From assembly GCA_032718475.1 (NCBI GenBank), contig JAUCBJ010006637.1, forward strand, positions 62,001-126,000: DNA of 64,000 bases, given 5' to 3'. Below the pieces are notes generated by a model. That model worked only from the letters and a program-made list of their open reading frames with translations. It made no database searches and was not told the origin of the DNA. The DNA is from Nemertoderma westbladi (lineage: Eukaryota > Animalia > Xenacoelomorpha). This document shows, in pieces, positions 10,311 to 64,000 of the stretch (position 1 is its first letter; each line of letters starts with the position of its first letter). The position numbers and the translations under genes were made by a program.

Positions 10311-10882
10311 TAAATAATTACTTGAAATTATCTTGAATAATTTTATCTCTAATACCGGTAGCGCTACAGACAGATCTTAACACTTACCAGCTTACCGCTA
10401 CCAACAGTAATATTATTATTATTAATGGTATTTAAGCCATTATTGCCATTGTTATCAATTATTATTTTGGATAATATATTAACTTTTTATTATTTCTCGG
10501 ACAACTAAAAAGGAAGAGGGAGCTATTGGTTTAAGTATGTCAGCAGTGTATCTTATTATCTATCCATTCCCCATTCCAGTGTATATTAGCCAGCCTATCG
10601 CCGCTAAAGCCAGACATCAATATTTCTCTATCCTTGTAAGGTCGTAGTTGTGTCAAACTTTAGCTGATAATTTTTTTTATCAGTTTCGAAGAAACTGATG
10701 TTTCGTAGATTTTGCTCTATTGCTAAGTATTATAAATGTCTAGGAATTCGTGGTATTTATATTATGCTCTTATTATTGACACATCCTTATATGAATAGCA
10801 ATACAATAATTTATTCTTTAACTGACTTATTTTGCAAAATATAATTTTAATACTTTATTTTAAAATATACTTCGGCTCGGCC
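10311..10882. promoter_or_regulatory. Putative bidirectional promoter between MTAP and the CTHRC1-like gene
   Basis: Two start codons diverge ~570 bp apart; inferred from arrangement only, no TSS data. Confidence 0.45.
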
Positions 10883-26900: not shown

Positions 26901-29900
26901 ACTTTATGTACCGAGAGAACGCAGCGAGGGAGGAGTAGTGTAGGATAAAACAGTACTTTATGTACCGAGAGAACGCAGCGAGGGAGGAGTAGTGTAGGAT
27001 GAAGTAGTACTTTATGTACCGAGAGAACGCAGCGAGGGAGGAGTAGTGTAGGATAAAGTAGTACTTTATGTACCGAGAGAACGCAGCGAGGGAGGAGTAG
27101 TGTAGGATAAAGTAGTACTTTATGTACCGAGAGAACGCAGCGAGGGAGGAGTAGTGTAGGATAAAGTAGTACTTTATGTACCGAGAGAACGCAGCGAGGG
27201 AGGAGTAGTGTAGGATAAAGTAGTACTTTATGTACCGAGAGAACGCAGCGAGGGAGGAGTAGTGTAGGATAAAGTAGTACTTTATGTACCGAGAGAACGC
27301 AGCGAGGGAGGAGTAGTGTAGGATAAAGTAGTACTTTATGTACCGAGAGAACGCAGCGAGGGAGGAGTAGTGTAGGATAAAGGAGTACTTTATGTACCGA
27401 CAGAACGCAGCGAGGGAGGAGTAGTGTAGGATAAAGGAGTACTTTATGTACCGAGAGAACGCAGCGAGGGAGGAGTAGTGTAGGATAAAGTAGTACTTTA
27501 TGTACCGAGAGAGCGCAGCGAGGGAGGAGTAGTGTAGGATAAAGTAGTACTTTATGTACCGACAGAACACAGCGAGGGAGGAGTAGCGTGGGATAAAGTA
27601 GTACTTTATGTACCGAGAGAGCGCAGCGAGGGAGGAGTAGCGTGGGATAAAGTAGTACTTTATGTACCGAGAGAGCGCAGCGAGGGAGGAGTAGTGTAGG
27701 ATAAAGTAGTACTTTATGTACCGACAGAACACAGCGAGGGAGGAGTAGCGTGGGATAAAGTAGTACTTTATGTACCGAGAGAACGCAGCGAGGGAGGAGT
27801 AGTGTAGGATAAAGTAGTACTTTATGTACCGAGAGAGCGCAGCGAGGGAGGAGTAGCGTGGGATAAAGTAGTACTTTATGTACCGAGAGAGCGCAGCGAG
27901 GGAGGAGTAGTGTAGGATAAAGTAGTACTTTATGTACCGACAGAACACAGCGAGGGAGGAGTAGCGTGGGATAAAGTAGTACTTTATGTACCGAGAGAAC
28001 GCAGCGAGGGAGGAGTAGTGTAGGATAAAGTAGTACTTTATGTACCGAGAGAACGCAGCGAGGGAGGAGTAGTGTAGGATAAAGTAGTACTTTATGTACC
28101 GAGAGAACGCAGCGAGGGAGGAGTAGCTAGGGATAAAGTAGTACTTTATGTACCGAGAGAGCGCAGCGAGGGAGGAGTAGTGTGGGATCACGTAAATAAA
28201 CGAACCGTGAATTACGCTGGATAGGTTAATGTGTGTCTTAATCGGCGTACTCAACGCTTAATTTATAGGTTTATGTCCGTTGCAGTTACTACAACAACCG
28301 TATGGTAAACAATTTTACGCATAATAAACCACGGATATCATGAAGGAGTTGTAAACTATAATTTTAAAGGCTTAACGCTTCGGGTTTCATTCGCTTTTAA
28401 TATTGCAATATGTTGTTTAGTTACAAGCAGGGGGGTGTTTCAACTCTGAATCACATAACATACCAAAAAGTAAAGGTTTTTGGGCCAAAATTATAAAAAT
28501 ATATATTTTTGTTGATTATTGAAATTAATTACCTTAATTATTGTGGTCTTACACGCAAAGTTATTATTGTTACCGTGGCTGTTTGTTAGTTACCCTTGGA
28601 AACGAATATATATATGGCATTGAATTGGAATACGCCAAAACTATAATCCGTAAAATGAACAAATGTGTCACAAATAAAGATTGACATACCAAATATTTCG
28701 AGATTCCACAACTACCGTTCTATAGGAATGGCCTGGTAACGCTAAGCTCTTACTATACTCCCTCTGGGAAACATATTTATTAATCGATAACCGGAAAATA
28801 ACAACAATCATGGGTTGCCTCCACGGAATGCAATCTGTTGATTGCGAATTATTGGTATTTGTTAATAAGGGCTGCTACTCTCACGGCTCACCGCTGCTAC
28901 ACTCACGGCTCACCGTTGCTACCCTCACGGCTCACCGCTGCTACTCTCACGGCTCACCGCTGCTACACTCACGGCTCACCGCTGCTACACTCACGGCTCA
29001 CCGTTGCTACCCTCACGGCTCACCGTTGCTACCCTAACGTCTCACCGCTGCTACCCTCACGGCTCACCGTCGCTACCCTAACGCCTCACCGTTGCTACCC
29101 TAACGTCTCACCGCTGCTACCCTCACGACTCACCGCTGCTACTCTCACGGTTCACCGTTGCTACCCTAACGCCCCACCGTTGCTACCCCCACGGCTCACC
29201 GTTGCTACCCTCACGGATCACCGTTGCTACCCTCACGGCTCACCGTTGCTACCCTAACGCCTCACCGTTGCTACCTTAACGCCTCACCGTTGCTACCCTA
29301 ACGCCTCACCGTTGCTACCCTAATGCCTCACCATTGCTACCCTCACGGCTCACCGTTGCTACCCTAACGCCTCACCGTTGCTACCCTAACGCCTCACCAT
29401 TGCTACCCTAACGCCTCACCATTGCTACCCTAACGCCTCACCGTTGCTACCCTAACGCCTCGCCTCACCGTTGCTACCCTAACGCCTCACCATTGCTACC
29501 CTAACGCCTCACCGTTGCCACCCTAACGCCTCACCATTGCTACCCTAACGCCTCACCGTTGCTACCCTAACGCCTCACCGTTGCTACCCCAACGTCTCAC
29601 CCTGCCACCACCATGACATTGCGGTTGCATCCTGTATGTATATTCGTCTAGTCTCATCATCACGAGAAGGTGGTTATGCAACAAAAATATCTACGTTACG
29701 TTATTGGTTTGCTTGCTGGATATTTTGAGTTTCACCGTGGTAGTGCGAGTCTCAAAACGCGGAAACAATGACATTTTGAGTTTCCCCGTGGTAGTGCGAG
29801 TCTCAAAACGCGGAAACAATGATATTTTAGCTTCTACTCTACAATTATGAGAACCTGTTGCATTGGCCTCACTTAAATATGTTTCTGTCTATTCTCCCGT

Positions 29901-35539: not shown

Positions 35540-38500
35540 TTAACTCCCAGCACTGAGTATATCTGATCTAAGTTGAGGTGTCTCGAGTGCGGATTGTCTC
35601 AACCTCGTAACACATTCCATATACTCCGCGTATAAATGGCTACAATTCAATGAGTCCGTTAGATGTAGATCGAGGCATTTCTCGATTGAGTTTTTAATGT
35701 CGATGCAAACAGGTTTATATTCGATGGAACTGAAAAATAAAACAATTATATTATATATAAGAAATCGAAAAGTAATTAATTGTGGAATAAAAAAATGTAT
35801 CGAAAACAGTTTCATTATTTTATTACTCTGCAAAATTAGGGAGACCCTAAGGGGAGGCCTACCTACTGTGTTAGCTGTATTATATTATACATTTGGTATA
35901 GTAACAAGTTATGGATGGCAAGTAATTAATTGGTTGCCGATTGAGGATGTGAGATAATAAATTTCTAAAAATTAAGTGATTGAAGTAGAAGAGTGAAATA
36001 ACCTGAAGTAAGGAGGACTGCGATCGAGCGAGTGGAGGAAATAAAAGGGATAGTCTCCGATCGAATCTCATTGATTTATTTAGTTGGGAAATATGATTCT
36101 AATTATAAATTCTAATAATATAATATAATTCTACACACCACAGAGCATTGGGTCAGCTAATTACAGTGAATGTTCTAGACGTCTTTGTTAACCTCGCAAT
36201 GTACAAATTTCGGAATCGCGAAACTTTTAAGGGAATAAATATATCGCATTTACAAACCAATAAGTTTGCCATCCCCAACTTGTTACTATAGAAATGTACA
36301 GCTAACACAGTCATTAGGTAGTAGGACTACATTATTTTAATATTCAATACATATTGAATTTCTCCCCTCCTTATTAATTATTATATTTAGCCTTATAATG
36401 TTAGAAATTAATAGAGAATTGAGATGCTGTACTTATAAACTAATTAATACAACTTTAGTGTCTGGAGCGTCTAACTTCTATACATTGATCTGGGGTCGTT
36501 CACTAACCTTATCATTGAGTCAACCTTCTCTACATTCCATCTGAGATTGCTCTGAGCCATGGCTTTATGTAAACGACTTCTACGTTCCATTGCCTCGGCA
36601 TATTGCTGCCACACCTCGCTGTGCTCTTTAACCTATACATAGAAATAAAGCCTTATAATGTCCTTCTCATCCTCTATAAAATCTACTCCCGATTACCGGG
36701 AAATGGATTATCAATTTAACATAATTATTTATTTAAGTATTGAGCTTGTAACGAACTAATTAATTACCTTCGTGGCACACATTCACACTACTGTAACATC
36801 CTACCTGGTCCAGAAACAGTACCAAGTCCATTGATCAAGAAAACTTGCCACCTCCATGCAGCATAAAGGAGGTGCCACCTGTAGCTGCATAGACCCTCTT
36901 ACTAGGGCAAATCTGGTCCTGTAACTAGGAACCCCTTCGTTCTGGGATAGTGACACCCTTGGTCCTGGATTACGGACCCATATACTTGGCTGCAGAGGTA
37001 TATGGCCTGACCAGGCAGATGGTGATCTACCAATGGCTGGTCAGGAGTAGAGTGTTCTCATGTCCACTCTGAGTGCACTTCACTGCGACCTGCACCTGGC
37101 AGCAGGGGTATAGGGAATGACCCAGCAGATGAGCTGCACAGCCAATGGTGGGTCATGTGCGTCAGAGTAGATATGGCTGATGGGCCTCATATCTGACTCC
37201 ATTGCAACACCCACCCTGTGGAATGGCAAACCAGGGTGTGGTATTTGCCCCGTGAGCTGACTCGGCAAAAAAGCACCCCCCAACCCCCACTATGGATTAC
37301 ATTAGTAATGCGGAGGTCCGGCCACTAGAATTACCGGACACAATCGGCCTCACAGGCGTCAGTTAACTCCTGACCGTCTCACCCGCAACTGGAGAGAGAG
37401 CGGCCAACAATTCTGTGAATGCCTTTCCTGATGACCTTTCTGGCCCAAACCCTGGGACACCAGGGAGGCCAGATTGTGAGGGGGAGAGGGATTCTGGAGT
37501 TGGAGGCTACTCTCATGTTCCACCACGACCAACAAAGCCATTGGTGAAGTCACAAGTCACAAGACTAGCCTCAGTAAACACCCTAACACTCGGGTCCCCA
37601 ATGCGACAAGGTGAACTGACTGCCTTGGCAGATAAGCTTTCTCTTAGCGCAGTGGGTATTCAAGAGCACCGAATGCAGACTGGACAGACTGATGAGGTTC
37701 TGATTAAGGACATGGGGGGCGGTTGGCGACTCGCCCTCGCATCAGCAGATGATAGTGGCAATGGTAGAATTGGTCTATTGATGAATCCAACTGCACATGC
37801 AGCATTGGACAAAATAGACCAAATCTCCAACCGCATCATCAAAACAAATAAGTTGGTGCCAGTTCCCAAGAAGGGCAACCTAACACTCTATGGTTCTTTT
37901 CGGGGAATCTCATTGATCTCGATTGCTGCAAAGCTATACAATAGAATTCTATTAAATCGCATCAGGGATCCCATTGAGAGACTGCTCCGTGGAAATCAGA
38001 ATGGGTTCCGTAAAGGTCGGGGGACCATGGAGCCCATTTTGGCACTTAGACGGATAATTGAAGAGTTATCAAAAAAGAAAGGCAGGCATCTGCTGTTATC
38101 TTTGTTGACTTCTTCAAGGCCTTTGATTCAGTCTCTCGCTCACGTATGTTCAGCATACTTTCATTATATGGGATTCCTGATGAAATTATTGCAGCAATCA
38201 GACCAGTATACGATGGTTCGACAACATTTGTGTCTACTGTTGACGGTGACACAGAACCATTTGAAGTGTTATGGGGCGTCCTGATGGGAGACACACTTGC
38301 ACCATTCTTGTTCATAATTGTGGTTGACTATGTTCTACGCATGTCCTTCTAGATCATCATAATGATGATGGGGTGATGATAACTCCACCTACTGGCTCCA
38401 GAAGTCGAGGAAATCCTGCCAAGTACCTAACTGATCTAGACTTTGCTGATGACTTAGGAGTACTCTCAGAATCACTAGAGGGAGCCCAACTCAACGGCTC

Positions 38501-41500
38501 CTCAGCTCATTAGAACAGGCTGCTTCTAGTTTTTTTTTATTAACTCCAAAAAGACAAAAATGTTGACGGTTAACTTTGAAAGTCCTCAGCAAGTCTCTCA
38601 CCGGATGAGCATAAGCTCAAAGGATGGTATGCTTGAGCATGTGGACGACTTCTGTTACCTGGTATCATGGATCCGGAAGTCAGGTGAGGACTTTCGCATA
38701 CATAAGGGAAAGGCAAGGGTAGCATTGAATAGGCTTTCCAGGATTTGGACACATCGAATTCATCGGAAACTTAAGGTACGATTATTTAGAGCAGCAGTAG
38801 TTCCAGTACTCCTATATGGGAGTCAATGCTGGGCTCTAACTGCTGAGGACACCAAATCTCTGGATGGCACATTCACAAGAATGCTACGCCGGGTTCATTG
38901 TGTCAAGTACAATGCACACATCTCCAACCAGACACTATATAACATTGGAGGTGTCTCATTGGTTCCCCCAAGCTTGACACTAGAACAAAATCGCCTCCGC
39001 TTTGCAGGACATTGCTTTCGCCGTGAGGACCAGCCAGTGCATAATCTTGTACTTTGGCAGCCTCATGGAGTGAATAAGCATGGTGGACAGCCCATGACTT
39101 TCTTGAGACGCATCTTAAAGGACACTGGCCTTGAAGATGCGGATGATCTAGCAAATGTCATGGGCGATAGGGAGTTGTGGCGGCGAAATTTTGTCGACAA
39201 GTCGGCACAGCATTCTTAATATATATATGATATATATATATAATGCAGCTGCAATGCAGCATGCCGATCGTAGTAATAGTAGTAGTAGTAACAGCCTACC
39301 TTAGTGGCAGTGGAATTACGTTCATCCTGGCGTCCACGCCAGTAAGCCAGAGACCCTGGGTTAGGGTAATCCATAGCGTCCGTATCCTTATCGGGGGGAA
39401 ACAATGGACATTCTAGAATAAAAAAATAACAGTTTAATAATATGTAGAGCGCATAATGTGCATAAATAATACAGCAAAGCAAAGTCGGTTGCTATGATAC
39501 GGCTGAGCAAAAGGAAAACGATTTATATATAATGAAAAGTGGCGTTTAGCAGATAATTCTGTACCCGACATCATAATGCCCACAATTTTCAAAACCAACT
39601 TCTGGCAACTGCATTTTAAATATAAAGGCTTAATTTTATTTAAAATCAGTATAAGCAAAGGTGTGCGCACTACTATACCGAGCAATAATGGTTTCGGTCT
39701 GCCAAAACACCAGTTAAAATAACATTTAGTAGATTGTTTAAATGAATGGTGGAAAAATTGTCACAATTACTAGTTCATGTATATTTCTATTAACTTAAAT
39801 TAATAGAAGAGATTAAAAGAACGACAGACATCTGGCTGTTATCTTTTTTTGACTTCTGTATGGACTTCCGGGTCCAGAAGTCGCGGAAATCCATCCAAAC
39901 ATCTAACATATCTAGACTTTGCTGATGACTTAGGAGTACTCTCATAATATGGGAGTTCAACTTCATCAGCTCATTAGAACAGGCTACTTCTATTGTTGGT
40001 CTTTTTGTTAACTCCAAGAAGACAACAATTTTGACAGTTATGACTTATGAGCATAAGCTCTAAGGATGGTTTGCTTGAGCATGTGAACGACTTCTGCTAC
40101 CAGGGATCATGGATCCAGAGGTGAGGAGGTCTTTGAATACGTAACGGGAAGTCCTGGGCCGCATTGAATGGGGTTTCCAGGATTTGGAAGTCACACAGAA
40201 TACATCGTAAACATAAAGTACGATTATTTAGAGCAGCAGCAGTTCCACTACTCCTCTATTTGATTCCATGCTGGGCTTAACTGTTGAGGACACGAAATCT
40301 CTGTATGGCACTTACTGCATACAAGAAAGCTATGCCGGGTTCACTGTATCAAGTATAAAGCACACATCTCCAACCAGACACTATAACACTGGAGGTGTCT
40401 CATTGGAGACTTGAACAAAGCTGTCACCGCTTAGCAGGGCAAGTCCAATCATAACTGGGTACAATCTTGTTGTTTGTGTAGCCTCATGGAGAAAATAAAC
40501 AAGGTGGACATTCCCGAAAATGGGGAGGTAGAGTAAAACGTCTGTCCTTATCTGATCTGACATCATCTGAACCTATAACCAATCAGGAGAAACAGATATA
40601 ATATTGTATAAGGTACTGTTAATTAGGTACAGTAAATAGCCAATAGGGGATCAGGTTGCTAGGCTACGTATCAGTATCATCATATGACATACAGCAGTAC
40701 AGGCATACCGGTATGCAGCCAATGCACCAAGGCATTGGTATTATATATTAAAAATGCGATATAGGATGAAGGATGGCGGGTATTTTTGTATATCTTTCTT
40801 GTTAATATTTATCTTTATTAATAGTTGAAAGTTAATTATATTAATTATAATTAATATTATTAAATAATGATACTTATTAGTATATTACAGATTTGTTTTA
40901 AAAATTAAACATCCATACTGTATTAATATATTACTACTACTACTAGGTCGAGCGAACTCGGACATCGGATCAGAATCTCTGTACTGCCGAATATGGCGCA
41001 ACACTTATGCCGCATATTGCCCTGATTGCCAGTTGATACAGCGAAGTTTATACCCAGACGACGGGAAAATGGGAATGTAGGAAGGTGGATGGGAATGGGG
41101 AATCAATAAACGCTGCTGTTACCTTCCAATTGAAGGAAAGGAGCAGGTTACAGCGGCGGCATGCCGATACTAGTAGTAGTACAGCGGCGGCAATTTCTAA
41201 CCAAAACAATAAAGTTGTTACCTACAAACTGAGGGAAAGGACCTGCTCCTTTCCCTCAATTTGTAGGTAACAATTTTATTGTTTACAGGGTCTAGGATTT
41301 TCTAACTAAAACAATAATCGATGTTGTTACCAATTTAGGGAATAAAGCAGATTACAGAATCTAGCTTTTCTAACCAAACAATAAACTATGTTGTTGTTAC
41401 CTACCTCATAACCAAAACAATAAACGTGTGTTGAGTAGGTTACATCTGTACATGGTTTCGCTTTTCTAACCAAAACAATATAAGTTGTTGTTACCTATGA

Positions 41501-44500
41501 ATGGACGGAGATGGAGCAGGTTACAGGGGCGGGCTTTTCTAACCAAAACAATAAACGATTTTGTTACCTGCAAATTGAGGAAATAGAGAATGTTAGCCTA
41601 CCGAGGCTGTCTTTTCCAATTCTAACCAAAACACAAAGCAACCATCCGGCCACATTCACATCCACCCACCTTCCCGCCCACCATCTCATCTTCCCACATT
41701 CACATCCACTCACCTTCCCACCCACCATCTCATCTTCCCACATTCACATCCACTCACCTTCCCACCCACCATCTCATCTTCCCACATTCACATTCACATC
41801 CACCCACCATCTCATCTTCCCACATTCACATCCACTCACCTTCCCACCCACCATCTCATCTTCCCACATTCACATTCACATCCACCCACCATCTCAACTT
41901 CCCACATTCACATCCACCCACCTTCCCGCCCACCATCTCATCTTCCCACATTCACATCCACCCACCTTCCCGCCCACCATCTCAACTTCCCACATTCACA
42001 TCCACCCACCTTCCCGCCCACCATCCCATCTTCCCACATCCACCTTCCCACCCACCATCTCATCTTCCCACATTCACATCCACCCACATTCCCGCCCACC
42101 ATCTCATCTTCCCACATTCACATCCACTCACCTTCCCGCCCACCATCTCATCTTCCCACATTTACATCCACCCACCTTCCCGCCCACCATCTCATCTTCC
42201 CACATTCACATCCACCCACCTTCCCGCCCACCACCTCAACTTCCCACATTCACATCCACCCACCTTCCCGCCCACCATCCCATCTTCCCACATTCACATT
42301 CACATCCACCCACCATCTCATCTTCCCACATTCACATCCACCCACCTTCCCGCCCACCATCTCAACTTCCCACATTCACATCCACTCACCTTCCCACCCA
42401 CCATCTCATCTTCCCACATTCACATTCACATCCACCCACCATCTCATCTTCCCACATTCACATCCACCCACCTTCCCGCCCACCATCTCATCTTCCCACA
42501 TTCACATTCACATCCACCCACCATCTCATCTTCCCACATTCACATCCACCCACCTTCCCGCCCACCATCTCATCTTCCCACATTCACATCCATCAACCCA
42601 CCATCCCACTCACCTTCCCACCCACCATCTCATCTTCCCACATTCACACACCTTCCCGCCCACCATCTCATCTTCCCACATTCCCATCCACCCACCTTCC
42701 CACCCACCATCTCATCTTCCCACATTCACATCCACCCACCTTCTCACCCACCATCTCATCTTCCCACAGTCCCATCCACCCACCTTCCCACCCACCATCT
42801 CATCTTCCCACATTCACATCCACCCACCTCCACCCACCATCTCATCTTCCCACAGTCCCATCCACATCCACCTTCCCACCCACCATCTCATCTTCCCACA
42901 TTCCCATCCACCCACATTCGTACCTTGTCCATATAACTGTATAAGTATAAACTAATAGTATAAACCACTACACTAAGGGGAACAAGTGTTAGATAACGAT
43001 TAGATCAGATCAGATAAGGACAGACGTTTTAGGGTGGCGTTTTAGTTTTATGGGTGTATTAGTTGTTATAGTGATGGAATGAAGCGGAATGCCCTAGCCA
43101 TTGACTTTGGTGAATGTCTCTAAATACTAAATTTTGAATATATCAATGTTTGAATTTCAAATTGTAGACCTACAGTCAAATTTAATACCGGTACCGACAT
43201 TTGCAGTAGGAGGTTATTTGAGTTTGGATATGTAGATGATATTTCAAGTATTGCATAGCTTGTGTCGCACATCCCGATTAATTAGGCCATGTCCAGTACC
43301 AGGTCTACCTACCCCTTGACGTCTCTATCTACAATTACCTGAAACTTAAAAGTTTGCTATACTAACGTTCACGGATTACTATTTTTTCCGGAGGAGCTTC
43401 CAACGTAATATCTTCCCCTTTTGTTTGGCTTTGCTTTTCATCTGCTTTAGGTTTAGCTACTTCAGGTACCGGTGATTTTGTTTCCGATATTATTTTGGGT
43501 TCCGGAATTGACGATTCCGGTATTATTGCGGGTTCAGGAATTTTTTGTTCAGGAACTTTTGGTTCCCGAACTATTGAGGCTGGAATAGTTGGTTGTTTGG
43601 TTTCTTGTAATTTTGGTTCTGATAATTTTGGTTCTGGTATTTTTGTTTCTGGTATTTTTTGTTCAGAGTTTTCGATTACTGATGGAGGTACCGGTAATAC
43701 AGTTGGCCGAGTTTGTGATGATTTTAGTTTATCCAATGAATCTTCTTTAGGTTCTTCTGTTTTGCTTTCAAGGGGTATCTGGGCCTGGGGTTTGGGTTGG
43801 CCTTCTAAATGTTTCTGGTTAACCTAAGAAAACAAACGGCACCGACGATAAACAAATGAAAATTTTGATGTTATGATATTATTACTTGTTGAGAGGACGT
43901 TGGCATGGACTGTGACTGTAGTACTAAATATTTGAAAATTATACCGATAAAGACAGTAATTTATTAGCCCTACCACCCTACCCCTCTCTGCCTCTTCTCT
44001 ACCACGCACTCTATTTCGAATTTTTCCAATTGGTTATTTTGGTTAGGCTTAACTAACTGTAATGTCATGTACAGATGTAATGTAATGATATGTAATGTAA
44101 TATGTATAGATGTAATGTCCCCAGTGAAATTAAATCCGTGTGATGGCAATGTCTGTCTACATTACTGACATAAGTATATCAACAACGTACAAGTATTTGA
44201 TTTGGTTTTTTTCACGTCAACAACAAATTATATGCACTAAACAGATAAAATCGCAATGTAAAGCGAAACAACGATGAGAAACAACAATGAATATTATATA
44301 ACTATGCATATAAGTGTACTGTACATACCTATATGGCACGGTAACATGAGAAATGTTGCACAATTGCATTAGTTTAAAACAATGGGTCTCAACATCACAA
44401 GCATAGGTAAAATATAATTAATGTATTGTACAGTATAAACAAGAAGGATATCGTATGTAGTGAATATAAATGTAAATATGTACCGGTAGGCTATGTAAAT

Positions 44501-47549: not shown

Positions 47550-50509
47550 GGGGGGGGTATAATAATAGACCATAAATTTTGGACGCTCTATAGATGCATC
47601 TAAAATTATTTTTTTGCTAGGAGTCATATTTTGAGTTTTGTGACTAAGGAATTAAAATTTTGGAAAAATTCAAAATTTTTCAAAAATTTTATTTTTTCGC
47701 CAAAATTTTGCCAAAAAGGCAAAAAATGAAAAAAATGCTAAGGCTTCTAGCCAAATTATCCAAATACTTCAAAACTCACGTGAGAAAGTCAGTAGGACGT
47801 CCCAAACGATTTGCATTGACAAAATTTTGATATCTTGTCGAGAAGAGCAAAAAGCACCAAAAGGGACATTTTTGGTCCAAAAAATGACCAAAATTTCAAA
47901 AATTTGGCCCAATTTTTCGAAAAAATTGAGTTTTTAAAAAAATATCAAAATTTTGTCAATGCATTTTGTAAAGGACCCCACAATCATCGATCATGCAAAA
48001 AATCAGCACATTTGGGCCATTTTTGACAGAGCCTTAGCATTTTTCGTTTGAAAAATGCTAATTGGAGAAAAACAGGTTTAAAGTTAAAGTTTGTTTATTT
48101 TATTATGAAGTTAAATTTTTGAAATTTCGATTAAATGAGATAAACTCAGTGAATTCTAATAAAATTTTTTTCATCTAGTTCCAAATTTTATGTAGATTCC
48201 AAAAATTGTATTATTATCGCATGTTAATCTTAAGGTCATATTATTTCATATAAAAGACATGTTAAAGGGTGTGAATTTTTTGACAAAATTTGAACAAAAA
48301 ACTGAAATCAATAAAAAATAATAATTCAAATTAGGCACTATATTAATATTCATTAATTAAAATTAAATTTAAAAATTTAAAATGAAATTTAAAAAGTTAA
48401 TTAAAAGGCCCCAGATTTATATGACTTATGATCGGGTGCTTGCCATTTCTTTGATGGTTTGTGTTCAGTACTTTTCTGTTTACGTTTTAGGTTGACCTTC
48501 TTTGCTCGTTCTGCAAGGTCACCATCATCTTCCTCAAGGCCAAGCTTCTTCAAAATTATCTGTTCTGCTGAACACCCCCGATTGTGAACTAAAACAGTAT
48601 ACGAAACATGAAACATGAGTGTACTTAGACCCACAAACGTTTCTTTAGATAGACGAGTCCATAGCCGTGAATGCAGAGATTCGTTCGGATTTTGTGTGAG
48701 GCCAGGGATACAGCGTTCCAGAATTTCGCTCGTTGTTAGGCGTTCATAAACAGGTAAAATAAACTTCATGTTTGCCTCTTTTATAAATGTTACATTTTTG
48801 TAACTTATAGCATTGTTTTTGAATTTACACCACTTATTTTCAGGGCATAACTCATGTTGTTTCTCAACATTATCTCCATAATCACAATAGTGATGTGTTG
48901 CAGCCACGATTTCACTTCGAATCGTGCTTATGAGCACTGATTTTTCAGTCTCTGAGAGTTTATCTATATCAACATCTGCTATATTCTTCACGATCGTATT
49001 TCGGTAATATGACTGCAATTGGTGACATCGACTATCAGTCAACCCTCCCTTGCCTCCAAGTTTATGAGTTTTGCGAGCATTGGAAAGACCTGTATATAGA
49101 CGCTTCGCAACGTGGTTCAGGCACTCTTTCTTCTGCACTGTTACATTCTGCTCTCTGTAAGGATCGGACTCCAATATGTTCTTCATAACGCTGCTGTCGC
49201 CATCCGATACCATTGATTGATATATGACACCATTATTTGATAGGGATCTATTGAATAGTTTAACAGCTAAATGAGGTTCCATACCTGAACTGGACCCTGA
49301 ATAATTTATATTACACTCATGATCAGCATTGCCATCTTCTTCTTTGTTGCGGCTACAAATATTACAGTATTTTGAACAAACATCGAAATCAATGACATGT
49401 CCTGTATTTTCGGATATGATAAACGCGGCACCATAAAGTGATTGATGGCCTCTTTTCATCCATGTACCGTCAAAAGATATACATATTTCCCTGTCAATCT
49501 CTTTCATTGCACAATTTTTTGCATTTCCTCGTGCAAGTGATTCCGTGACCTTCGAGATTTCGTTGACATGAAATTGCCAGGCTCTCTTCGCAACAGGAGA
49601 TGGTAGTGACATTATTCTAGAAAACGTCTCTGCATCACCATGGGTCCCACCAACACAAAGCCAAGCCAGTACTGCACGAAGATTCACATCCGCTGTTTTT
49701 CTTCCAGGACGAGGTTCAGTTCGAGAAACTTGGTCGCTCGTGAAAGTAGAATATTGCCAATCACAACGTGAACATTTCCCCTCAAAATTGGTACTATAAC
49801 CACGATGTGACTCATTTATCACTACTGTACCGTCACATTGCTTATCATCATGTTTCTCCATTATCAGTTTCTTTATTATTTGCGTTGCTACAACGTTATA
49901 TCCCTCCAACTTTCCATCTGAGGGTAGGACATTCAGATTCGATGCTATTAGCGACGGTTCTCGATCTTTTGGCACTACCGGTACCGGTACTGAAATCGAT
50001 TTCATATGCGCGAGGTTCAATGTACCGGTATCTTGTTTCTTGGTTCCTGTTTCTTGTTTCTTGGTTCTTGGCATACTGTATTATAAAAATTATATCGTCA
50101 ACGATGTATGTACAATTTTCGATTCGAAGATGGAGGACGCTCTATAGTCTGTGTCCGTCAAAACTGCTGATTGCATTGATTGAAACACCAATACAGCATA
50201 CAGTTAGTAACTAAAACATAACAATGTGCAAATTCTCGTTTTAAACCTCCCGCTAAAATACATTCCAACCTGTAATAACTTATTAGCCAATACAATGATT
50301 TCAGTGCAACAAGCCGGAAATTTTGTTAATTTTTGTCATTTTTTTCAAATAATTTTCAGGATGCGTGTCTATATAATGAGCCATAACTCGAAAACTAGAC
50401 AAGCTAGAAATAAACTGTTTACAGATTTGAAATCTCCATAAAATTTGCTACAAGAAACGGGTATAAAATTTTTTTTATATTTTTTGACCCCAATTATTAT
50501 ACCCCCCCC
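47550..50509 (-). mobile_element. Kolobok-type DNA transposon, 2960 bp, TTAA TSD
   Basis: TTAA (47546-49) GGGGGGGGTATAATAAT ... ATTATTATACCCCCCCC TTAA (50510-13): perfect 17-bp TIR, purine-purine termini, encloses a transposase ORF. Confidence 0.85.
48401..50074 (-). CDS. DDE transposase (Mutator-like/Kolobok family), 557 aa
   Basis: ISFDGTWMKRGHQS, SKYCNIC, NYSGSSSGME, MVSDGDSS, KKECLNHVAKR, TQNPNESLHS; uninterrupted ORF. Confidence 0.92.
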   Translation of the reverse strand: MPRTKKQETGTKKQDTGTLNLAHMKSISVPVPVVPKDREPSLIASNLNVLPSDGKLEGYNVVATQIIKKLIMEKHDDKQCDGTVVINESHRGYSTNFEGKCSRCDWQYSTFTSDQVSRTEPRPGRKTADVNLRAVLAWLCVGGTHGDAETFSRIMSLPSPVAKRAWQFHVNEISKVTESLARGNAKNCAMKEIDREICISFDGTWMKRGHQSLYGAAFIISENTGHVIDFDVCSKYCNICSRNKEEDGNADHECNINYSGSSSGMEPHLAVKLFNRSLSNNGVIYQSMVSDGDSSVMKNILESDPYREQNVTVQKKECLNHVAKRLYTGLSNARKTHKLGGKGGLTDSRCHQLQSYYRNTIVKNIADVDIDKLSETEKSVLISTIRSEIVAATHHYCDYGDNVEKQHELCPENKWCKFKNNAISYKNVTFIKEANMKFILPVYERLTTSEILERCIPGLTQNPNESLHSRLWTRLSKETFVGLSTLMFHVSYTVLVHNRGCSAEQIILKKLGLEEDDGDLAERAKKVNLKRKQKSTEHKPSKKWQAPDHKSYKSGAF

Positions 50510-55043: not shown

Positions 55044-58000
55044 TCATTGGACTTTGAACATATCAACTTTACTGCTAGAATTATTGTAGCCTTTACTTTC
55101 CATGTGATCCACAATGGCCTTGTATATCTCATCTCGATTCATCATCATTCCGAATAAATATGGCTAAAAAACAATCACAGTAACCTTTTAGATTTAGCGG
55201 AACTACAATAAATAATAATAATAAATATGGATAAAAAACAATCACAGTAACCTTTTAGATTTAGCGGAACTACATTCAATAATAATAATAAATATGGATA
55301 AAAAACAATCACAGTAACCTTTTAGATTTAGCGGAACTACATTCAATAATAATAATAAATATGGATAAAAAACAATCACAGTAACCTTTTAGATTTAGCG
55401 GAACTACATTCAATAATAATAATAAATATGGATAAAAAACAATCACAGTAACCTTTTAGATTTAGCGGAACTACATTCAATAATAATAATAAATATGGAT
55501 AAAAAACAATCACAGTAACCTTTTAGATTTAGCGGAACTACAATCAATAATAATAATAAATATGGCTAAAAAACAATCACAGTAACCTTTTAGATTTAGC
55601 GGAACTACATTCAATAATAATAATAAATATGGATAAAAAACAATCACAGTAACCTTTTAGATTTAGCGGAACTACATTCAATAATAATAATAAATATGGA
55701 TAAAAAACAATCACAGTAACCTTTTAGATTTAGCGGAACTACAATAAATAATAATAATAAATATGGATAAAAAACAATCACAGTAACCTTTTAGATTTAG
55801 CGGAACTACAATAAATAATAATAATAAATATGGATAAAAAACAATCACAGTAACCTTTTAGATTTAGCGGAACTACATTCAATAATAATAATAAATATGG
55901 ATAAAAAACAATCACAGTAACCTTTTAGATTTAGCGGAACTACATTCAATAATAATAATAAATATGGATAAAAAACAATCACAGTAACCTTTTAGATTTA
56001 GCGGAACTACATTCAATAATAATAATAAATATGGATAAAAAACAATCACAGTAACCTTTTAGATTTAGCGGAACTACATTCAATAATAATAATAAATATG
56101 GATAAAAAACAATCACAGTAACCTTTTAGATTTAGCGGAACTACATTCAATAATAATAATAAATATGGATAAAAAACAATCACAGTAACCTTTTAGATTT
56201 AGCGGAACTACATTCAATAATAATAATAAATATGGATAAAAAACAATCACAGTAACCTTTTAGATTTAGCGGAACTACATTCAATAATAATAATAAATAT
56301 GGATAAAAAACAATCACAGTAACATTTTAGATTTAGCGGAACTACAATCAATAATAACAATAAATATGGCTAAAAAACAATCACAGTAACCTTTTAGATT
56401 TAGCGGAACTACAATCAATAATAACAATAAATATGGCTAAAAAACAATCACAGTAACCTTTTAGATTTAGCGGAACTACAATAAATAATAATAATAAATA
56501 TGGCTAAAAAACAATCACAGTAACCTTTTAGATTTAGCGGAACTACAATAAATAATAATAATAAATATGGCTAAAAAACAATCACAGTAACCTTTTAGAT
56601 TTAGCGGAACTACAATAAATAATAATAATAAATATGGCTAAAAAACAATCACAGTAACCTTTTAGATTTAGCGGAACTACAATAAATAATAATAATAAAT
56701 ATGGCTAAAAAACAATCACAGTAACCTTTTAGATTTAGCGGAACTACAATCAATAATAACAATAAATATGGCTAAAAAACAATCACAGTAACCTTTTAGA
56801 TTTAGCGGAACTACAATAAATAATAATAATAAATATGGCTAAAAAACAATCACAGTAACCTTTTAGATTTAGCGGAACTACAATAAATAATAATAATAAA
56901 TATGGATAAAAAACAATCACAGTAACCTTTTAGATTTAGCGGAACTACAATAAATAATAATAATAAATATGGCTAAAAAACAATCACAGTAACCTTTTAG
57001 ATTTAGCGGAACTACAATAAATAATAATAATAAATATGGCTAAAAAACAATCACAGTAACCTTTTAGATTTAGCGGAACTACAATCAATAATAACAATAA
57101 ATATGGCTAAAAAACAATCACAGTAACCTTTTAGATTTAGCGGAACTACAATAAATAATAATAATAAATATGGCTAAAAAACAATCACAGTAACCTTTTA
57201 GATTTAGCGGAACTACAATAAATAATAATAATAAATATGGATAAAAAACAATCACAGTAACCTTTTAGATTTAGCGGAACTACATTCAATAATAATAATA
57301 AATATGGATAAAAAACAATCACAGTAACCTTTTAGATTTAGCGGAACTACATTCAATAATAATAATAAATATGGATAAAAAACAATCACAGTAACCTTTT
57401 AGATTTAGCGGAACTACATTCAATAATAATAATAAATATGGATAAAAAACAATCACAGTAACCTTTTAGATTTAGCGGAACTACATTCAATAATAATAAT
57501 AAATATGGATAAAAAACAATCACAGTAACCTTTTAGATTTAGCGGAACTACATTCAATAATAATAATAAATATGGATAAAAAACAATCACAGTAACCTTT
57601 TAGATTTAGCGGAACTACATTCAATAATAATAATAAATATGGATAAAAAACAATCACAGTAACCTTTTAGATTTAGCGGAACTACATTCAATAATAATAA
57701 TAAATATGGATAAAAAACAATCACAGTAACCTTTTAGATTTAGCGGAACTACAATAAATAATAACAATAAATATGGCTAAAAAACAATCACAGTAACCTT
57801 TTAGATTTAGCGGAACTACAATCAATAATAACAATAAATATGGCTAAAAAACAATCACAGTAACCTTTTAGATTTAGCGGAACTACAATAAATAATAATA
57901 ATAAATATGGCTAAAAAACAATCACAGTAACCTTTTAGATTTAGCGGAACTACAATAAATAATAATAATAAATATGGCTAAAAAACAATCACAGTAACCT

Positions 58001-59473
58001 TTTAGATTTAGCGGAACTACAATAAATAATAATAATAAATATGGCTAAAAAACAATCACAGTAACCTTTTAGATTTAGCGGAACTACAATAAATAATAAT
58101 AATAAATATGGCTAAAAAACAATCACAGTAACCTTTTAGATTTAGCGGAACTACAATCAATAATAACAATAAATATGGCTAAAAAACAATCACAGTAACC
58201 TTTTAGATTTAGCGGAACTACAATAAATAATAATAATAAATATGGCTAAAAAACAATCACAGTAACCTTTTAGATTTAGCGGAACTACAATAAATAATAA
58301 TAATAAATATGGCTAAAAAACAATCACAGTAACCTTTTAGATTTAGCGGAACTACATTCAATAATAATAATAAATATGGCTAAAAAACAATCACAGTAAC
58401 CTTTTAGATTTAGCGGAACTACAATAAATAATAATAATAAATATGGCTAAAAAACAATCACAGTAACCTTTTAGATTTAGCGGAACTACAATCAATAATA
58501 ACAATAAATATGTAATATTATGGTTTTGTTCAGAAATGAAAAAATTGAGAAAGCGCGTCACCGGGGGTTGAACCAGCGGTATACTTACGTTTCAGTCCAC
58601 ATCAGTAGCGCTAACCAGTTCAGCCACTTGCCCCTGACATTCACTCTCCCACCTAATCCACTTCTACTTCTCACGCTGGTAGCGCTGGTTCAACCCCCGG
58701 TGACGCGCTTTCTCATTTTTTCCATTTCTGAACAAAACCATAATATTACATCTTTAATTACAGTTGCATTAACAGCTGAACTCCAATTTATTTATATAAT
58801 AATAAATAAACAAATTGATTGCGTTTCCTTTTACGATTTTAACTTATTTACGTAAAATATCTAGAAATATAAATATAAAGTAATTAACAATATAGGGAAC
58901 CTACGGACAATCTTCAATATGTAACACTATATACACATACTGGGCCTCGTGCTGCGCGAAGGCCCCACGAACGTGTAACACTATATACACATACATTCTG
59001 TAGTTTTAGAGCACCGGGTTTTGTCATCTACATACCCACCTATAGATACACTTTTAGATATAGATAGACTCTTATAGATACAATTTTTGCCACAATTTGT
59101 TTCGCTAAACCAATCAATCTACATTCCTTATTTAAAAATGTTACATTACTATTCAAAATAATGTATTTTCCAATTAATATTAGAGCAAAATTATAGATAG
59201 GCTTTAATAATATAAATGAAGTTTGAGTTACCTGTAGTCCATTCTTTACAATAATCTCCATACAGACACCACTTCCTGGGATCACAGCGTAAGGTTTACA
59301 TTTCTCTATAGAAATAACTTCATTTAATTCTATTGTCAAGTTCTTAGTAGTTTGAGTCTTCGCTCTCAAGAAACACAGGAAATTATCAGTTAGAAATAAT
59401 CTCCCGTGTTTAAATGGAGAAATTGTTTTATCCTTAAGAATCCTGGTTGTCCTGTACCCACTTGATGGCCATT
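55044..59473 (-). CDS. GRAMD4: GRAM-domain protein GRAMD4-like, last two exons (59232-59473 and 55044-55163); 5' part lies beyond the window
   Basis: WPSSGYRTTRILKDKTISPFKHGRLFLTDNFLCFLR..IELNEVISIEKCKPYAVIPGSGVCMEI + PYLFGMMMNRDEIYKAI..stop parallels the recalled GRAMD4 GRAM domain (GVLYVTENYLCF..VLPGSGMGI..PLVFGAMVHRDEAF); canonical phase-0 intron. Confidence 0.85.
55153..58511. repeat. 67-bp minisatellite, ~50 copies, each containing the GRAMD4 terminal acceptor region
   Basis: GG(A/C)TAAAAAACAATC at 55229 and 55296; the first unit overlaps the exon start at 55163. Confidence 0.98.
58510..58751. repeat. Hairpin with ~68-bp inverted arms built from a tRNA-like SINE head
   Basis: ATGTAATATTATGGTTTTGTTCAGAAATG...CACCGGGGGTTGAACCAGCG vs CGCTGGTTCAACCCCCGGTG...CTGAACAAAACCATAATATTACAT; minus-strand A-box TGGCTGAACTGGTTAGCGC and B-box GGTTCAACCCC. 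Confidence 0.8.
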
Positions 59474-59944
59474 CTAAAACATTTTAAAAATATTCCAGTA
59501 TATTATTATTCTAGTATATATGTAATTCAGAGCTTGAATCTATACAGTTATGATAATCTATGAGTTTAGCAAAATCGCATTTATTTTGTTACTCAAGCAG
59601 TCATTGAATGGTCGTGTACAAAGAAGATGGGACATTCCCAACACACATGGCGAATGAAGGAAGCAAGCCATTTTCTCCTATATTGCCATTACCACTTTTT
59701 GGGAATTAAGGGATTCATTCCCTTGTTTTATGTTTATTAATTTTGGTTTCCTTGTCCCCTTTTTTATCACTGAAGTTTCCTTTTTCCCCTTTATTTTAAC
59801 TTTTCTGTTTCCTTTTTTTGTGAAATTTACCGCTGGGAGGGCTGCATTTCCTTCCAAGCTACAAAGGGAACTAAATTCGCCTTGATGAAACAACAATAAT
59901 TTGGGGACGTAAATTCGCTTAAAGGGGACCTAAGTCCGCAATTA

Positions 59945-62900
59945 CCTGTGGGATGAGCACCCGGCACCTGTCGTTCTGTACACCCACACACCTACCTGGT
60001 AAGGCGCTGTCTGGAGTGAGCACCCGGCACCTGCCGTTCTGTACACCCACACACCTACCTGGTAAGGCGCTGTCTGTAGTGAGCACCCGGCACCTGCCGT
60101 TCTGTACACCCATACACCTACCTGGTAAGGCGCTGTCTGGAGTGAGCACCCGGCACTTGCCGTTCTGTACACCCACACACCTACCTGGTAAGGCGCTGTC
60201 TGTAGTGAGCACCCGGCACCTGCCGTTCTGTACACCCATACACCTACCTGGTAAGGCGCTGTCTGGAGTGAGCACCCGGCACCTGCCGTTCTGTACACCC
60301 ACATACCTACCTGGCAAGGCGCTGTCTGGAGTGAGCACCCGGCACCTGCCGTTCTGTACACCCACACACCTACCTGGTAAGGCGCTGTCTGTAGTGAGCA
60401 CCCGGCACCTGTCGTTCTGTACACCCACACACCTACCTGGTAAGGCGCTGTCTGGAGTGAGCACCCGGCACCTGTCGTTCTGTACACCCACACACCTACC
60501 TGGTAAGGCGCTGGCTGGAGTGAGCACCCGGCACCTGCCGTTCTGTACACCCACATACCTGCCTGGTAAGGCGCTGTCTGTAGTGAGCACCCGGCACCTG
60601 CCGTTCTGTACACCCACACACCTACCTGGTAAGGCGCTGGCTGGAGTGAGCACCCGGCACCTGCCGTTCTGTACACCCACACACTTACCTGGTAAGGCGC
60701 TGTCTGGAGTGAGCACCCGGCACCTGTCGTTCTGTACACCCACACATCTACCTTGGAAGGCGCTGTCTGGAGTGAGCACCCGGCACCTGTCGTTCTGTAC
60801 ACCCACACACTTACCTGGTAAGGCGCTGTCTGGAGTGAGCACCCGGCACCTGCCGTTCTGTACACCCACACACCTACCTGGTAAGGCGCTGGCTGGAGTG
60901 AGCACCCGGCACCTGCCGTTCTGTACACCCACACACTTACCTGGTAAGGCGCTGTCTGGAGTGAGCACCCGGCACCTGCCGTTCTGTACACCCACACACC
61001 TACCTGGCAAGGCGCTGTCTGGAGTGAGCACCCGGCACCTGCCGTTCTGTACACCCACACACTTACCTGGTAAGGCGCTGTCTGGAGTGAGCACCCGGCA
61101 CCTGCCGTTCTGTACACCCACACACTTACCTGGTAAGGCGCTGTCTGGAGTGAGCACCCGGCACCTGCCGTTCTGTACACCCACACACTTACCTGGTAAG
61201 GCGCTGTCTGGAGTGAGCACCCGGCACCTGCCGTTCTGTACACCCACACACTTACCTGGTAAGGCGCTGTCTGGAGTGAGCACCCGGCACCTGCCGTTCT
61301 GTACACCCACACATCTACCTGGTAAGGCGCTGTCTGGAGTGAGCACCCGGCACCTGTCGTTCTGTACACCCACACACCTACCTGGTAAGGCGCTGTCTGT
61401 AGTGAGCACCCGGCACCTGTCGTTCTGTACACCCACACACCTACCTGGTAAGGCGCTGTCTGGAGTGAGCACCCGGCACCTGTCGTTCTGTACACCCACA
61501 CACCTACCTGGTAAGGCGCTGGCTGGAGTGAGCACCCGGCACCTGCCGTTCTGTACACCCACATACCTGCCTGGTAAGGCGCTGTCTGTAGTGAGCACCC
61601 GGCACCTGCCGTTCTGTACACCCACACACCTACCTGGTAAGGCGCTGGCTGGAGTGAGCACCCGGCACCTGCCGTTCTGTACACCCACACACTTACCTGG
61701 TAAGGCGCTGTCTGGAGTGAGCACCCGGCACCTGTCGTTCTGTACACCCACACATCTACCTTGGAAGGCGCTGTCTGGAGTGAGCACCCGGCACCTGTCG
61801 TTCTGTACACCCACACACTTACCTGGTAAGGCGCTGTCTGGAGTGAGCACCCGGCACCTGCCGTTCTGTACACCCACACACCTACCTGGTAAGGCGCTGG
61901 CTGGAGTGAGCACCCGGCACCTGCCGTTCTGTACACCCACACACTTACCTGGTAAGGCGCTGTCTGGAGTGAGCACCCGGCACCTGCCGTTCTGTACACC
62001 CACACACTTACCTGGTAAGGCGCTGTCTGGAGTGAGCACCCGGCACCTGCCGTTCTGTACACCCACACATCTACCTGGTAAGGCGCTGTCTGGAGTGAGC
62101 ACCCGGCACCTGTCGTTCTGTACACCCACACACCTACCTGGTAAGGCGCTGGCTGGAGTGAGCACCCGGCACCTGCCGTTCTGTACACCCACACACCTAC
62201 CTGGTAAGGCGCTGTCTGGAGTGAGCACCCGGCACCTGCTGCCGTTCTGTACACCCACACACTTACCTGGTAAGGCGCTGTCTGCAGTGAGCACCCGGCA
62301 CCTGCCGTTCTGTACACCCACACACTTACCTGGTAAGGCGCTGTCTGGAGTGAGCACCCGGCACCTGTCGTTCTGTACACCCACACACCTACCTGGTAAG
62401 GCGCTGTCTGCAGTGAGCACCCGGCACCTGCCGTTCTGTACACCCACACACTTACCTGGTAAGGCGCTGTCTGGAGTGAGCACCCGGCACCTGTCGTTCT
62501 GTACACCCACACACCTACCTGGTAAGGCGCTGTCTGGAGTGAGCACCCGGCACCTGCCGTTCTGTACACCCACACACCTACCTGGTAAGGCGCTGGCTGG
62601 AGTGAGCACCCGGCACCTGCCGTTCTGTACACCCACATACCTGCCTGGTAAGGCGCTGTCTGGAGTGAGCACCCGGCACCTGCCGTTCTGTACACCCACA
62701 CACCTACCTGGTAAGGCGCTGTCTGGAGTGAGCACCCGGCACCTGTCGTTCTGTACACCCACACACTTACCTGGTAAGGCGCTGTCTGGAGTGAGCACCC
62801 GGCACCTGTCGTTCTGTACACCCACACACTTACCTGGTAAGGCGCTGTCTGGAGTGAGCACCCGGCACCTGCCGTTCTGTACACCCACACACTTACCTGG

Positions 62901-64000
62901 TAAGGCGCTGTCTGGAGTGAGCACCCGGCACCTGTCGTTCTGTACACCCACACACTTACCTGGTAAGGCGCTGTCTGGAGTGAGCACCCGGCACCTGTCG
63001 TTCTGTACACCCACACACCTACCTGGTAAGGCGCTGTCTGGAGTGAGCACCCGGCACCTGTCCGTTCTGTACACCCACACACTTACCTGGTAAGGCGCTG
63101 TCTGCAGTGAGCACCCGGCACCTGTCGTTCTGTACACCCACACACCTACCTGGTAAGGCGCTGTCTGGAGTGAGCACCCGGCACCTGTCGTTCTGTACAC
63201 CCACACACCTACCTGGTAAGGCGCTGTCTGGAGTGAGCACCCGGCACCTGCCGTTCTGTACACCCACACACCTACCTGGTAAGGCGCTGTCTGGAGTGAG
63301 CACCCGGCACCTGCCGTTCTGTACACCCACACACCTACCTGGTAAGGCGCTGTCTGGAGTGAGCACCCGGCACCTGCCGTTCTGTACACCCACACACCTA
63401 CCTGGTAAGGCGCTGTCTGGAGTGAGCACCCGGCACCTGTCGTTCTGTACACCCACACACCTACCTGGTAAGGCGCTGTCTGGAGTGAGCACCCGGCACC
63501 TGCCGTTCTGTACACCCACACACCTACCTGGTAAGGCGCTGTCTGGAGTGAGCACCCGGCACCTGTCGTTCTGTACACCCACACACCTACCTGGTAAGGC
63601 GCTGTCTGGAGTGAGCACCCGGCACCTGCCGTTCTGTACACCCACACACCTACCTGGTAAGGCGCTGTCTGGAGTGAGCACCCGGCACCTGTCGTTCTGT
63701 ACACCCACACACCTACCTGGTAAGGCGCTGTCTGGAGTGAGCACCCGGCACCTGCCGTTCTGTACACCCACACACCTACCTGGTAAGGCGCTGTCTGGAG
63801 TGAGCACCCGGCACCTGTCGTTCTGTACACCCACACACCTACCTGGTAAGGCGCTGTCTGGAGTGAGCACCCGGCACCTGTCGTTCTGTACACCCACACA
63901 CCTACCTGGTAAGGCGCTGTCTGGAGTGAGCACCCGGCACCTGCCGTTCTGTACACCCACACACCTACCTGGTAAGGCGCTGTCTGGAGTGAGCACCCGG
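59945..64000. repeat. 63-bp minisatellite, 64 or more copies, runs off the window end; each unit has a minus-strand CAG|GTA(G/A)GT donor
   Basis: GAGCAC at 59955 and 60018; variant CCTTGGAAGG at 60751 and 61759 (1008 bp = 16 units). Confidence 0.98.

What the first reader, a model, noticed from the sequence alone, without database searches (positions are those of the whole stretch)
59945..64000. Over 4 kb of tandem in-frame splice donors upstream of the GRAM exon: a possible variable-length coding repeat set by 5' splice-site choice
Seen: each minus-strand unit is GTGCCGGGTGCTCACTCCAGACAGCGCCTTACCAG|GTA(G/A)GTGTGTGGGTGTACAGAACG(A/G)CAG. The donor follows ..GCC TTA CCA G (phase 1), the phase needed by exon 59473 (G|AA TGG), giving LTPDSALPEW. 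The unit is 63 nt and stop-free in that frame (RCVGVQNGRCRVLTPDSALPG). Copies at 63.1-64.0 kb carry GTAGGT; many copies further into the intron carry perfect-consensus GTAAGT. A +3 indel (~62237) keeps frame and a +1 indel (~63061) breaks it. Inference: the array is the exon end plus intron start amplified, and using donor n adds n 21-aa repeats.
Basis: partly seen in the sequence, partly recalled or inferred. Interest (0 to 1): 0.8.

Follow-up and report, generated by a model that had tools for sequence, protein, structure and literature searches.

The report
Splice-donor minisatellite in GRAMD4 intron
An animal GRAMD4 gene carries at least 64 head-to-tail copies of a 63-base piece holding a splice signal, likely its own exon end copied into the intron, and the next intron holds 50 copies of the following exon's start, so this is likely an ordinary, tolerated repeat of a kind known from humans, lancelets and birds rather than a device for lengthening the protein.

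Summary
The array is real: 63-nt unit, 59954-64000, running off the window, with 64 donor-like sites in the phase the GRAM exon (59473) needs. It most likely is an amplified exon end plus 5' splice site, but the far end is outside the window and the peptide match is weak (54 of 2194 open random donors score as well). The variable-length coding idea gets no support: the frame is open in 45% of shuffles, 3 of 13 unit variants are synonymous (25% expected), and a +1 insertion sends 49 of 64 donors, including 18 of 19 GTAAGT copies, into a stop. The class is published (human F7, IFI6, CBS, ABCA7; lancelet mirages; chicken exon stuttering), where the first one to three donors are used. The scan has noted the same kind before: 16 unchecked notes seen from this genome, others elsewhere. 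No RNA run was listed, so splicing was not tested.

The parts
59954..64000 (-). 63-nt minisatellite, at least 64 copies, runs off the window; by the register of its 3' end each unit is 21 nt of presumed exon end plus 42 nt of intron start
   Evidence: last donor at 59995 is 42 nt from the array end; exon origin inferred
63086..63968 (-). the 15 visible donors upstream of the +1 insertion (14 GTAGGT, 1 GTAAGT); only these would keep the GRAM frame
63058..63068 (-). unit with a +1 insertion; may be a consensus error between the two common unit variants (inferred, not tested)
59995..63022 (-). 49 donors downstream of the insertion (24 GTAGGT, 18 GTAAGT, 4 GTAGAT, 3 GCAGGT), all giving a premature stop if the frame enters from the window edge
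62233..62246 (-). unit with a +3 insertion
59946..59967 (-). candidate 22-nt micro-exon (donor at 59945); judged unlikely
   Evidence: peptide scores at the median of random donors; purine-rich acceptor, 7 of 20 pyrimidines
59232..59473 (-). GRAM-domain exon of a GRAMD4-like gene, phase 1 in, phase 0 out
   Evidence: Pfam GRAM E=3.5e-08; best relatives named GRAMD4-like; boundaries
55153..58512 (-). 67-nt minisatellite, 50 copies of the intron end plus first 11 nt of the last exon: 24 decoy AG copies, 25 copies with AG changed to AT, and the true acceptor as last copy
55044..55163 (-). last coding exon of the GRAMD4-like gene (39 codons and stop)
   Evidence: aligns to the orthologue profile directly after the GRAM exon

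Best explanation
The array is a 63-base minisatellite in an intron of a GRAMD4-like gene that likely arose when the end of the upstream exon and its 5' splice site were duplicated in tandem and then expanded, and the spliceosome likely uses the first, exon-adjacent donor beyond the window so that the other copies are removed with the intron. Shown: the array, its donors and phase, the two downstream exons, the twin acceptor array, and block duplications among unit variants. Inferred: that the first copy is continuous with unique coding sequence; that growth is by slippage or unequal exchange without selection on the protein; that the first donor wins through exon definition or oriented scanning. 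Low-level use of the second or third copy, as reported for IFI6, CBS and ABCA7, would here add 21 or 42 residues in frame and is compatible with this reading as leakage.
For: (1) The same gene has a junction-spanning array that can be checked at both ends: 67 nt x 50 over the last exon's acceptor, non-triplet, all 24 decoy AG copies giving a 40-residue unrelated peptide. (2) The donor motif is uncommon by chance (0.3% and 2.1% of shuffles; 5 hits in 43,152 non-array bases, both strands), on the gene strand and in the needed phase. (3) The six codons before the donor add 1.8 bits to the orthologue profile score; 54 of 2194 open random donors and 48 of 1252 open unit shuffles reach it, and none of the 19 GT sites scored in the unique part of the intron does. 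(4) No coding signature: frame open in 44.7% of shuffles, 3 of 13 variants synonymous, 49 of 64 donors dead. (5) A 9-unit block of variants recurs 16 units apart, as expected from repeat turnover. (6) Published arrays of this build use the first one to three donors.
Against: The far end of the array was not seen, no genome is held and splicing was not observed. The peptide match is weak: orthologues gain 8.8-14.2 bits from the nine upstream residues (in-sample) against 1.8 here, and the near-invariant Glu and the usual Pro of the motif are Asp and Ala. One of 13 other array regions in this window (41642-42919) carries 19 equally good donor-like motifs without copying the neighbouring putative exon end, so chance donors in intronic arrays do occur. 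In F7 minigenes, pseudo-sites with a perfect consensus did draw some splicing, and 19 copies here are of that type. The +1 insertion could be an assembly error. An AlphaFold model of an orthologue places the junction in a coil, which does not exclude an insertion.
Confidence: 0.75

Rival explanations
1. A purely intronic minisatellite whose unit holds a donor-like motif by chance; the true upstream exon and donor lie further away and share nothing with the unit.
For: Weak peptide match, below every orthologue; the window is full of minisatellites; the 44-nt array at 41642-42919 has 19 donor-like motifs without copying the adjacent putative exon end.
Against: Motif rarity, correct strand and phase, peptide score in the top 2.5-5% of open random donors, and a verified junction array in the next intron.
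Confidence: 0.13
2. One reading: the array is an amplified donor ladder that is used, so that a sizeable share of mRNAs carries a variable number of 21-residue repeats at the start of the GRAM domain.
For: Triplet period, open frame, phase-1 donors; 15 of 64 visible donors keep the frame. IFI6 and CBS use two extra donors (as described in PMC1557585); perfect-consensus pseudo-sites can compete. Two predicted orthologues have insertions at this site and the site is a coil in a model. One unchecked note from this genome reports use of an internal donor copy in GALNS.
Against: Frame openness is chance-level; 3 of 13 variants synonymous; 18 of 19 strongest donors are out of frame; 45 of the 47 orthologues that could be anchored have no insertion here; the twin array is non-triplet; reaching the first GTAAGT copy needs an exon over 914 nt longer.
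Confidence: 0.08
3. The exon upstream of 59473 is the 22-nt micro-exon 59967-59946 or ends at another unique donor in 59474-59953.
For: The site at 59945 is a good donor motif in phase 1 relative to the micro-exon.
Against: Its peptide scores 89.2 bits, reached by 1139 of 2194 open random donors; its acceptor has 7 of 20 pyrimidines against 10-14 for six other inferred acceptors in the window; of 19 unique GT sites scored, 12 give a stop and the best scores 89.3.
Confidence: 0.04

Closest known systems
Human minisatellites whose first monomer spans an exon-intron boundary: F7 intron 7 (37 bp, 5-9 copies), and IFI6/6-16, CBS intron 13, LMNB2, PDGF intron 4 as described in Borensztajn et al. 2006 (PMC1557585; seen: abstract, matching passages of the Introduction, whole Discussion; the primary papers on the other four genes were not seen)
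   Same: Tandem units that reiterate the donor into the intron; identical pseudo-sites downstream of the presumed authentic one.
   Different: At least 64 copies and over 4 kb against 5-26 copies; triplet period with an open frame; exon continuity and donor use not shown here.
Lancelet 'mirage' minisatellites: Adh3, globins BflGb6 and BflGb9 (Ebner et al. 2010, PMC3087553; seen: matching passages)
   Same: Tandem duplication of exon-intron boundaries, at donors and at acceptors, in an invertebrate; some copies have lost the splice signal; reported not to disturb splicing. The 67-nt acceptor array here fits directly.
   Different: Larger copy numbers (50 and at least 64 against 3 and 6 for BflGb6); two consecutive introns of one gene affected; no RT-PCR here.
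Chicken dot-chromosome 'exon stuttering' (Hron et al. 2026, PMC12954441; seen: matching passages)
   Same: Local repeat expansion that copies the edge of an exon with its donor or acceptor through the intron, in repeat-dense regions; 236 introns in 115 genes reported.
   Different: Bird microchromosomes against an invertebrate-like genome; population length variation not testable here.
ABCA7 intron 18 VNTR (De Roeck et al. 2018, PMC5954066; seen: matching passages)
   Same: Multi-kb repeat starting at a donor; retention of one unit through the next donor is seen.
   Different: 25-bp unit, so retention shifts the frame; unit begins at the GT and holds little exon; length linked to exon skipping, which could not be tested here.

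Membership tests
Junction-spanning minisatellite (F7-type, mirage, exon stuttering): 63-nt donor array | Head-to-tail array of near-identical units inside an intron of a protein-coding gene | tested here: met
   64.2 copies, 96% matches, upstream of a GRAM exon with a canonical acceptor
Junction-spanning minisatellite: 63-nt donor array | Each unit reiterates a splice site on the gene strand | tested here: met
   64 donor-like sites, 61 with GT; phase 1 as the next exon needs
Junction-spanning minisatellite: 63-nt donor array | The unit contains the end of the authentic exon | tested here: inconclusive
   +1.8 bits; 54 of 2194 open random donors and 48 of 1252 open shuffles score as well; orthologues gain 8.8-14.2 bits
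Junction-spanning minisatellite: 63-nt donor array | The terminal monomer is continuous with unique exon sequence | not testable with these tools
   lies beyond 64000; no genome held; exon not found in metagenome contigs
Junction-spanning minisatellite: 63-nt donor array | Splicing mainly at the authentic (first) site | not testable with these tools
   no RNA run was listed for the stretch asked
Junction-spanning minisatellite: 67-nt acceptor array | The terminal monomer spans the authentic boundary and continues into unique exon | tested here: met
   last copy's AG opens the 39-codon last exon, which aligns to orthologues
Coding tandem repeat under selection | Frame kept through the array and synonymous excess among unit variants | tested here: not met
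   +1 insertion; 3 of 13 variants synonymous against 25% expected; the count is small
GRAMD4 | C-terminal GRAM domain most similar to GRAMD4 proteins | tested here: met
   Pfam GRAM; of the 10 top hits looked up, 5 are named GRAMD4 or GRAMD4-like, 1 GRAM domain-containing, 4 hypothetical, numbered or unnamed; the N-terminal part of the gene is outside the window

The most novel reading that the evidence does not exclude
The in-frame donors nearest the exon are used at appreciable frequency, so GRAMD4 is made as a ladder of isoforms with 0 to 15 or more 21-residue, cysteine-containing repeats inserted in the coil at the start of its GRAM domain, with array length setting the ladder; and decoy sites nearest true exons are being weakened by selection (GTAGGT next to the donor, AG to AT in 16 of the 17 copies next to the acceptor).
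Probability: 0.08. Interest if true: 0.6.

Novelty: new member of a known kind. Interest (0 to 1): 0.2.

Why it matters
As a single locus it matters little: it is one more junction-spanning minisatellite. Its use is as a natural test of splice-site choice, since one gene offers at least 64 competing donors with a triplet period (so early copies would escape nonsense-mediated decay and be countable in RNA) and 24 competing acceptors before a terminal exon. If the ladder were really used, it would be a way to vary protein length from an intronic repeat at a scale beyond the two extra donors reported for IFI6 and CBS.

Tried and rejected
No whole genome is held, so the array's far end could not be read. 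No RNA holder was listed for 59150-59960; this is no evidence either way. Word-indexed protein searches with the GRAM exon found no scored relative at 140-2000 or 43-139 residues. An exact scan of metagenome contigs for a stretch of the exon found 0. A scan with alignment A1 gave 9 loci of 339 candidate stretches: 5 uninterrupted GRAMD4-like coding sequences and 4 distant GRAM proteins, none showing an intron at this site, so intron-position conservation was not tested directly. Indirect signs of a phase-1 intron there are weak: 39 of 45 orthologues have a residue with a G-starting codon before the Trp, but 29 of these are Gly; two predicted proteins (P0043, P0028) carry insertions at this site. 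The profile was built from 45 of 64 hits: 17 could not be anchored and those 2 were dropped. The position-weight scores used an exon start off by one base, so the split codon was misread; one search is the corrected test. One search was in the wrong frame (corrected). Solved-structure and Atlas searches gave only generic PH/GRAM-like hits. The primary IFI6 paper is not held. A paper search for GRAMD4 with exon, isoform and GRAM domain listed 6 of 7 papers, none about a repeat by title or abstract start. Rejected: micro-exon and unique donors; selection on the repeat as protein.

Full report
Observation. The window ends in a 63-nt tandem array, 59954-64000, 64.2 copies at 96% matches, one of more than a dozen minisatellites in these 64 kb. 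On the minus strand it holds 64 donor-like sites between 63968 and 59995: 38 GTAGGT, 19 GTAAGT, 4 GTAGAT and 3 GCAGGT. The array runs off the window, and no genome is held.

The gene. The exon 59473-59232 (242 nt) encodes a GRAM domain (Pfam E=3.5e-08). A full-library search gave 64 relatives, best 55% identical; of the 10 looked up, 5 are named GRAMD4 or GRAMD4-like in animals. I found the next and last coding exon at 55163-55044; the two exons align in one piece to a profile of 45 orthologue segments. The exon at 59473 needs a phase-1 donor, which the array's donors supply.

Is the unit the exon end? The array's 3' end lies 42 nt after the last donor, so the unit reads as 21 nt before and 42 nt after the donor. 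The 21 nt encode PDSALP, and the split codon would give Glu before the conserved Trp. Orthologues have a motif F-x-x-x-F-x-L-P-x-S-E-x-P-L-x-G-W. Adding the six array codons raises the profile score from 88.7 to 90.5 bits; 54 of 2194 stop-free random phase-1 donors (2670 more had a stop) and 48 of 1252 stop-free unit shuffles reach that; with 8 or 10 codons the figures are 79 of 1932 and 83 of 1725. Orthologues gain 8.8-14.2 bits in-sample. This is modest support only. The donor motif is uncommon (0.3% of base shuffles, 2.1% of dinucleotide shuffles; pattern chosen after seeing the unit), but 1 of 13 other array regions in the window also has it, without copying the neighbouring putative exon end. 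The micro-exon alternative scores at the median (1139 of 2194) and has a poor acceptor; none of 19 GT sites scored in the unique intron beats the array.

The twin array. The next intron holds a 67-nt array, 55153-58512, which the finding does not mention. Its last copy is the true acceptor and first 11 nt of the last exon. Of 50 copies, 25 keep the AG (24 decoys and the true site) and 25 have AT; every decoy would give a 40-residue unrelated peptide ending in a stop. Both ends of this array are visible, so junction amplification in this gene is shown directly, with a period that is not a multiple of three. This raises the odds that the 63-nt array is the donor counterpart and removes the need for a coding explanation.

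Is it a coding ladder? The phase-1 frame is open in 44.7% of 10,000 shuffles that keep the donor, and a second frame of the real unit is open too. Of 13 distinct substitutions among the 63-nt units, 3 are synonymous in that frame (25% expected). If the frame enters from the window edge, 15 of 64 donors give an intact protein and 49, including 18 of 19 GTAAGT copies, meet a stop after the +1 insertion (all). The insertion could be a consensus error between the two common variants; I could not check it. A 9-unit block of variants recurs 16 units later, which points to multi-unit duplication. In favour of tolerance at the protein level: an AlphaFold model of orthologue P0010 puts the junction in a confidently modelled coil between helix 59-63 and strand 79-84, and 2 of 47 anchored orthologues, both predicted proteins, have insertions there.

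Mechanism. Most likely (0.75) a duplication across the exon-intron boundary expanded by slippage or unequal exchange, and splicing uses the exon-adjacent donor. Growth mechanism and donor choice are inferred from the literature and from the twin array, not observed: no RNA run was listed.

What is known. Borensztajn et al. 2006 (PMC1557585; abstract, Introduction passages and Discussion read) describe F7, IFI6, CBS, LMNB2 and PDGF minisatellites whose first monomer spans the boundary; only the authentic donor is used in F7, LMNB2 and PDGF, two more in IFI6 and CBS, and only perfect-consensus pseudo-sites competed in F7 minigenes. That the IFI6 unit is 12 nt and in frame is my recollection; the paper is not held. 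Lancelet mirages (PMC3087553, passages), chicken exon stuttering (PMC12954441, passages) and the ABCA7 VNTR (PMC5954066, passages) are the same kind; PMC2812944 (passages) covers repeats at boundaries that form new introns or lengthen proteins. Supplements were not read. Five paper searches listed nothing on a GRAMD4 array, by title and abstract start.

Earlier notes of the scan. Sixteen distinct unchecked notes from other pieces of this genome describe donor or acceptor arrays, two of them titled as in-frame ladders where the transcript seen reportedly or likely uses the first donor, and one reporting use of an internal copy; seven more come from other genomes. They are leads, not evidence; they supplied the mirage and stuttering papers, which I read in part.

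Verdict. Observation confirmed; amplified exon end likely; variable-length coding repeat unsupported (0.08). New member of a known kind, interest 0.2.

Noticed in passing
window 55153-58512 (-): In the 67-nt acceptor array, 16 of the 17 copies nearest the true acceptor have AG changed to AT, against 9 of the 32 more distant ones. The AT copies fall in four runs and may stem from one mutation, so this is only a hint of selection against nearby decoys.
   Followed up: partly
window 58505-58756: MITE-like inverted repeat (77-nt arms, 95% complementary, 98-nt spacer) that abuts the start of the 67-nt array.
   Followed up: no
window 41642-42919 (-): 44-nt array that starts just after a putative 13-nt micro-exon donor and holds 19 donor-like motifs without copying that exon end; it lies among putative exons of a gene whose last exon (35731-35543) has a weak CHCH match, E=0.064.
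   Followed up: partly
window 28873-29601, 25975-28188, 24068-24748 (-): Three more arrays (22, 54 and 20 nt) begin at possible exon ends and repeat a GT-containing site; they may be further donor arrays of an unidentified gene. Two of the candidate peptides had no Pfam match.
   Followed up: partly
window 9474-10376 (-): Uninterrupted 301-codon frame of the purine nucleoside phosphorylase family (E=5e-47), resembling methylthioadenosine phosphorylase by my recollection; possibly an intron-poor gene or retrocopy.
   Followed up: partly
window 48404-50080 (-): 559-codon open frame with a Mutator-like transposase (E=1e-55).
   Followed up: partly
window 3585-5297 (+) and 19117-20263 (-): Two arrays that lie in long open frames (57-nt unit, 12 copies; Pro/Ser/Gln-rich 11-39-nt units) and may be exonic coding repeats.
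   Followed up: no
window 37367-39216 (+) and 2011-2820 (-): Open frames that look like fragments of non-LTR retrotransposons (endonuclease and reverse transcriptase-like peptides, recognised by eye).
   Followed up: no
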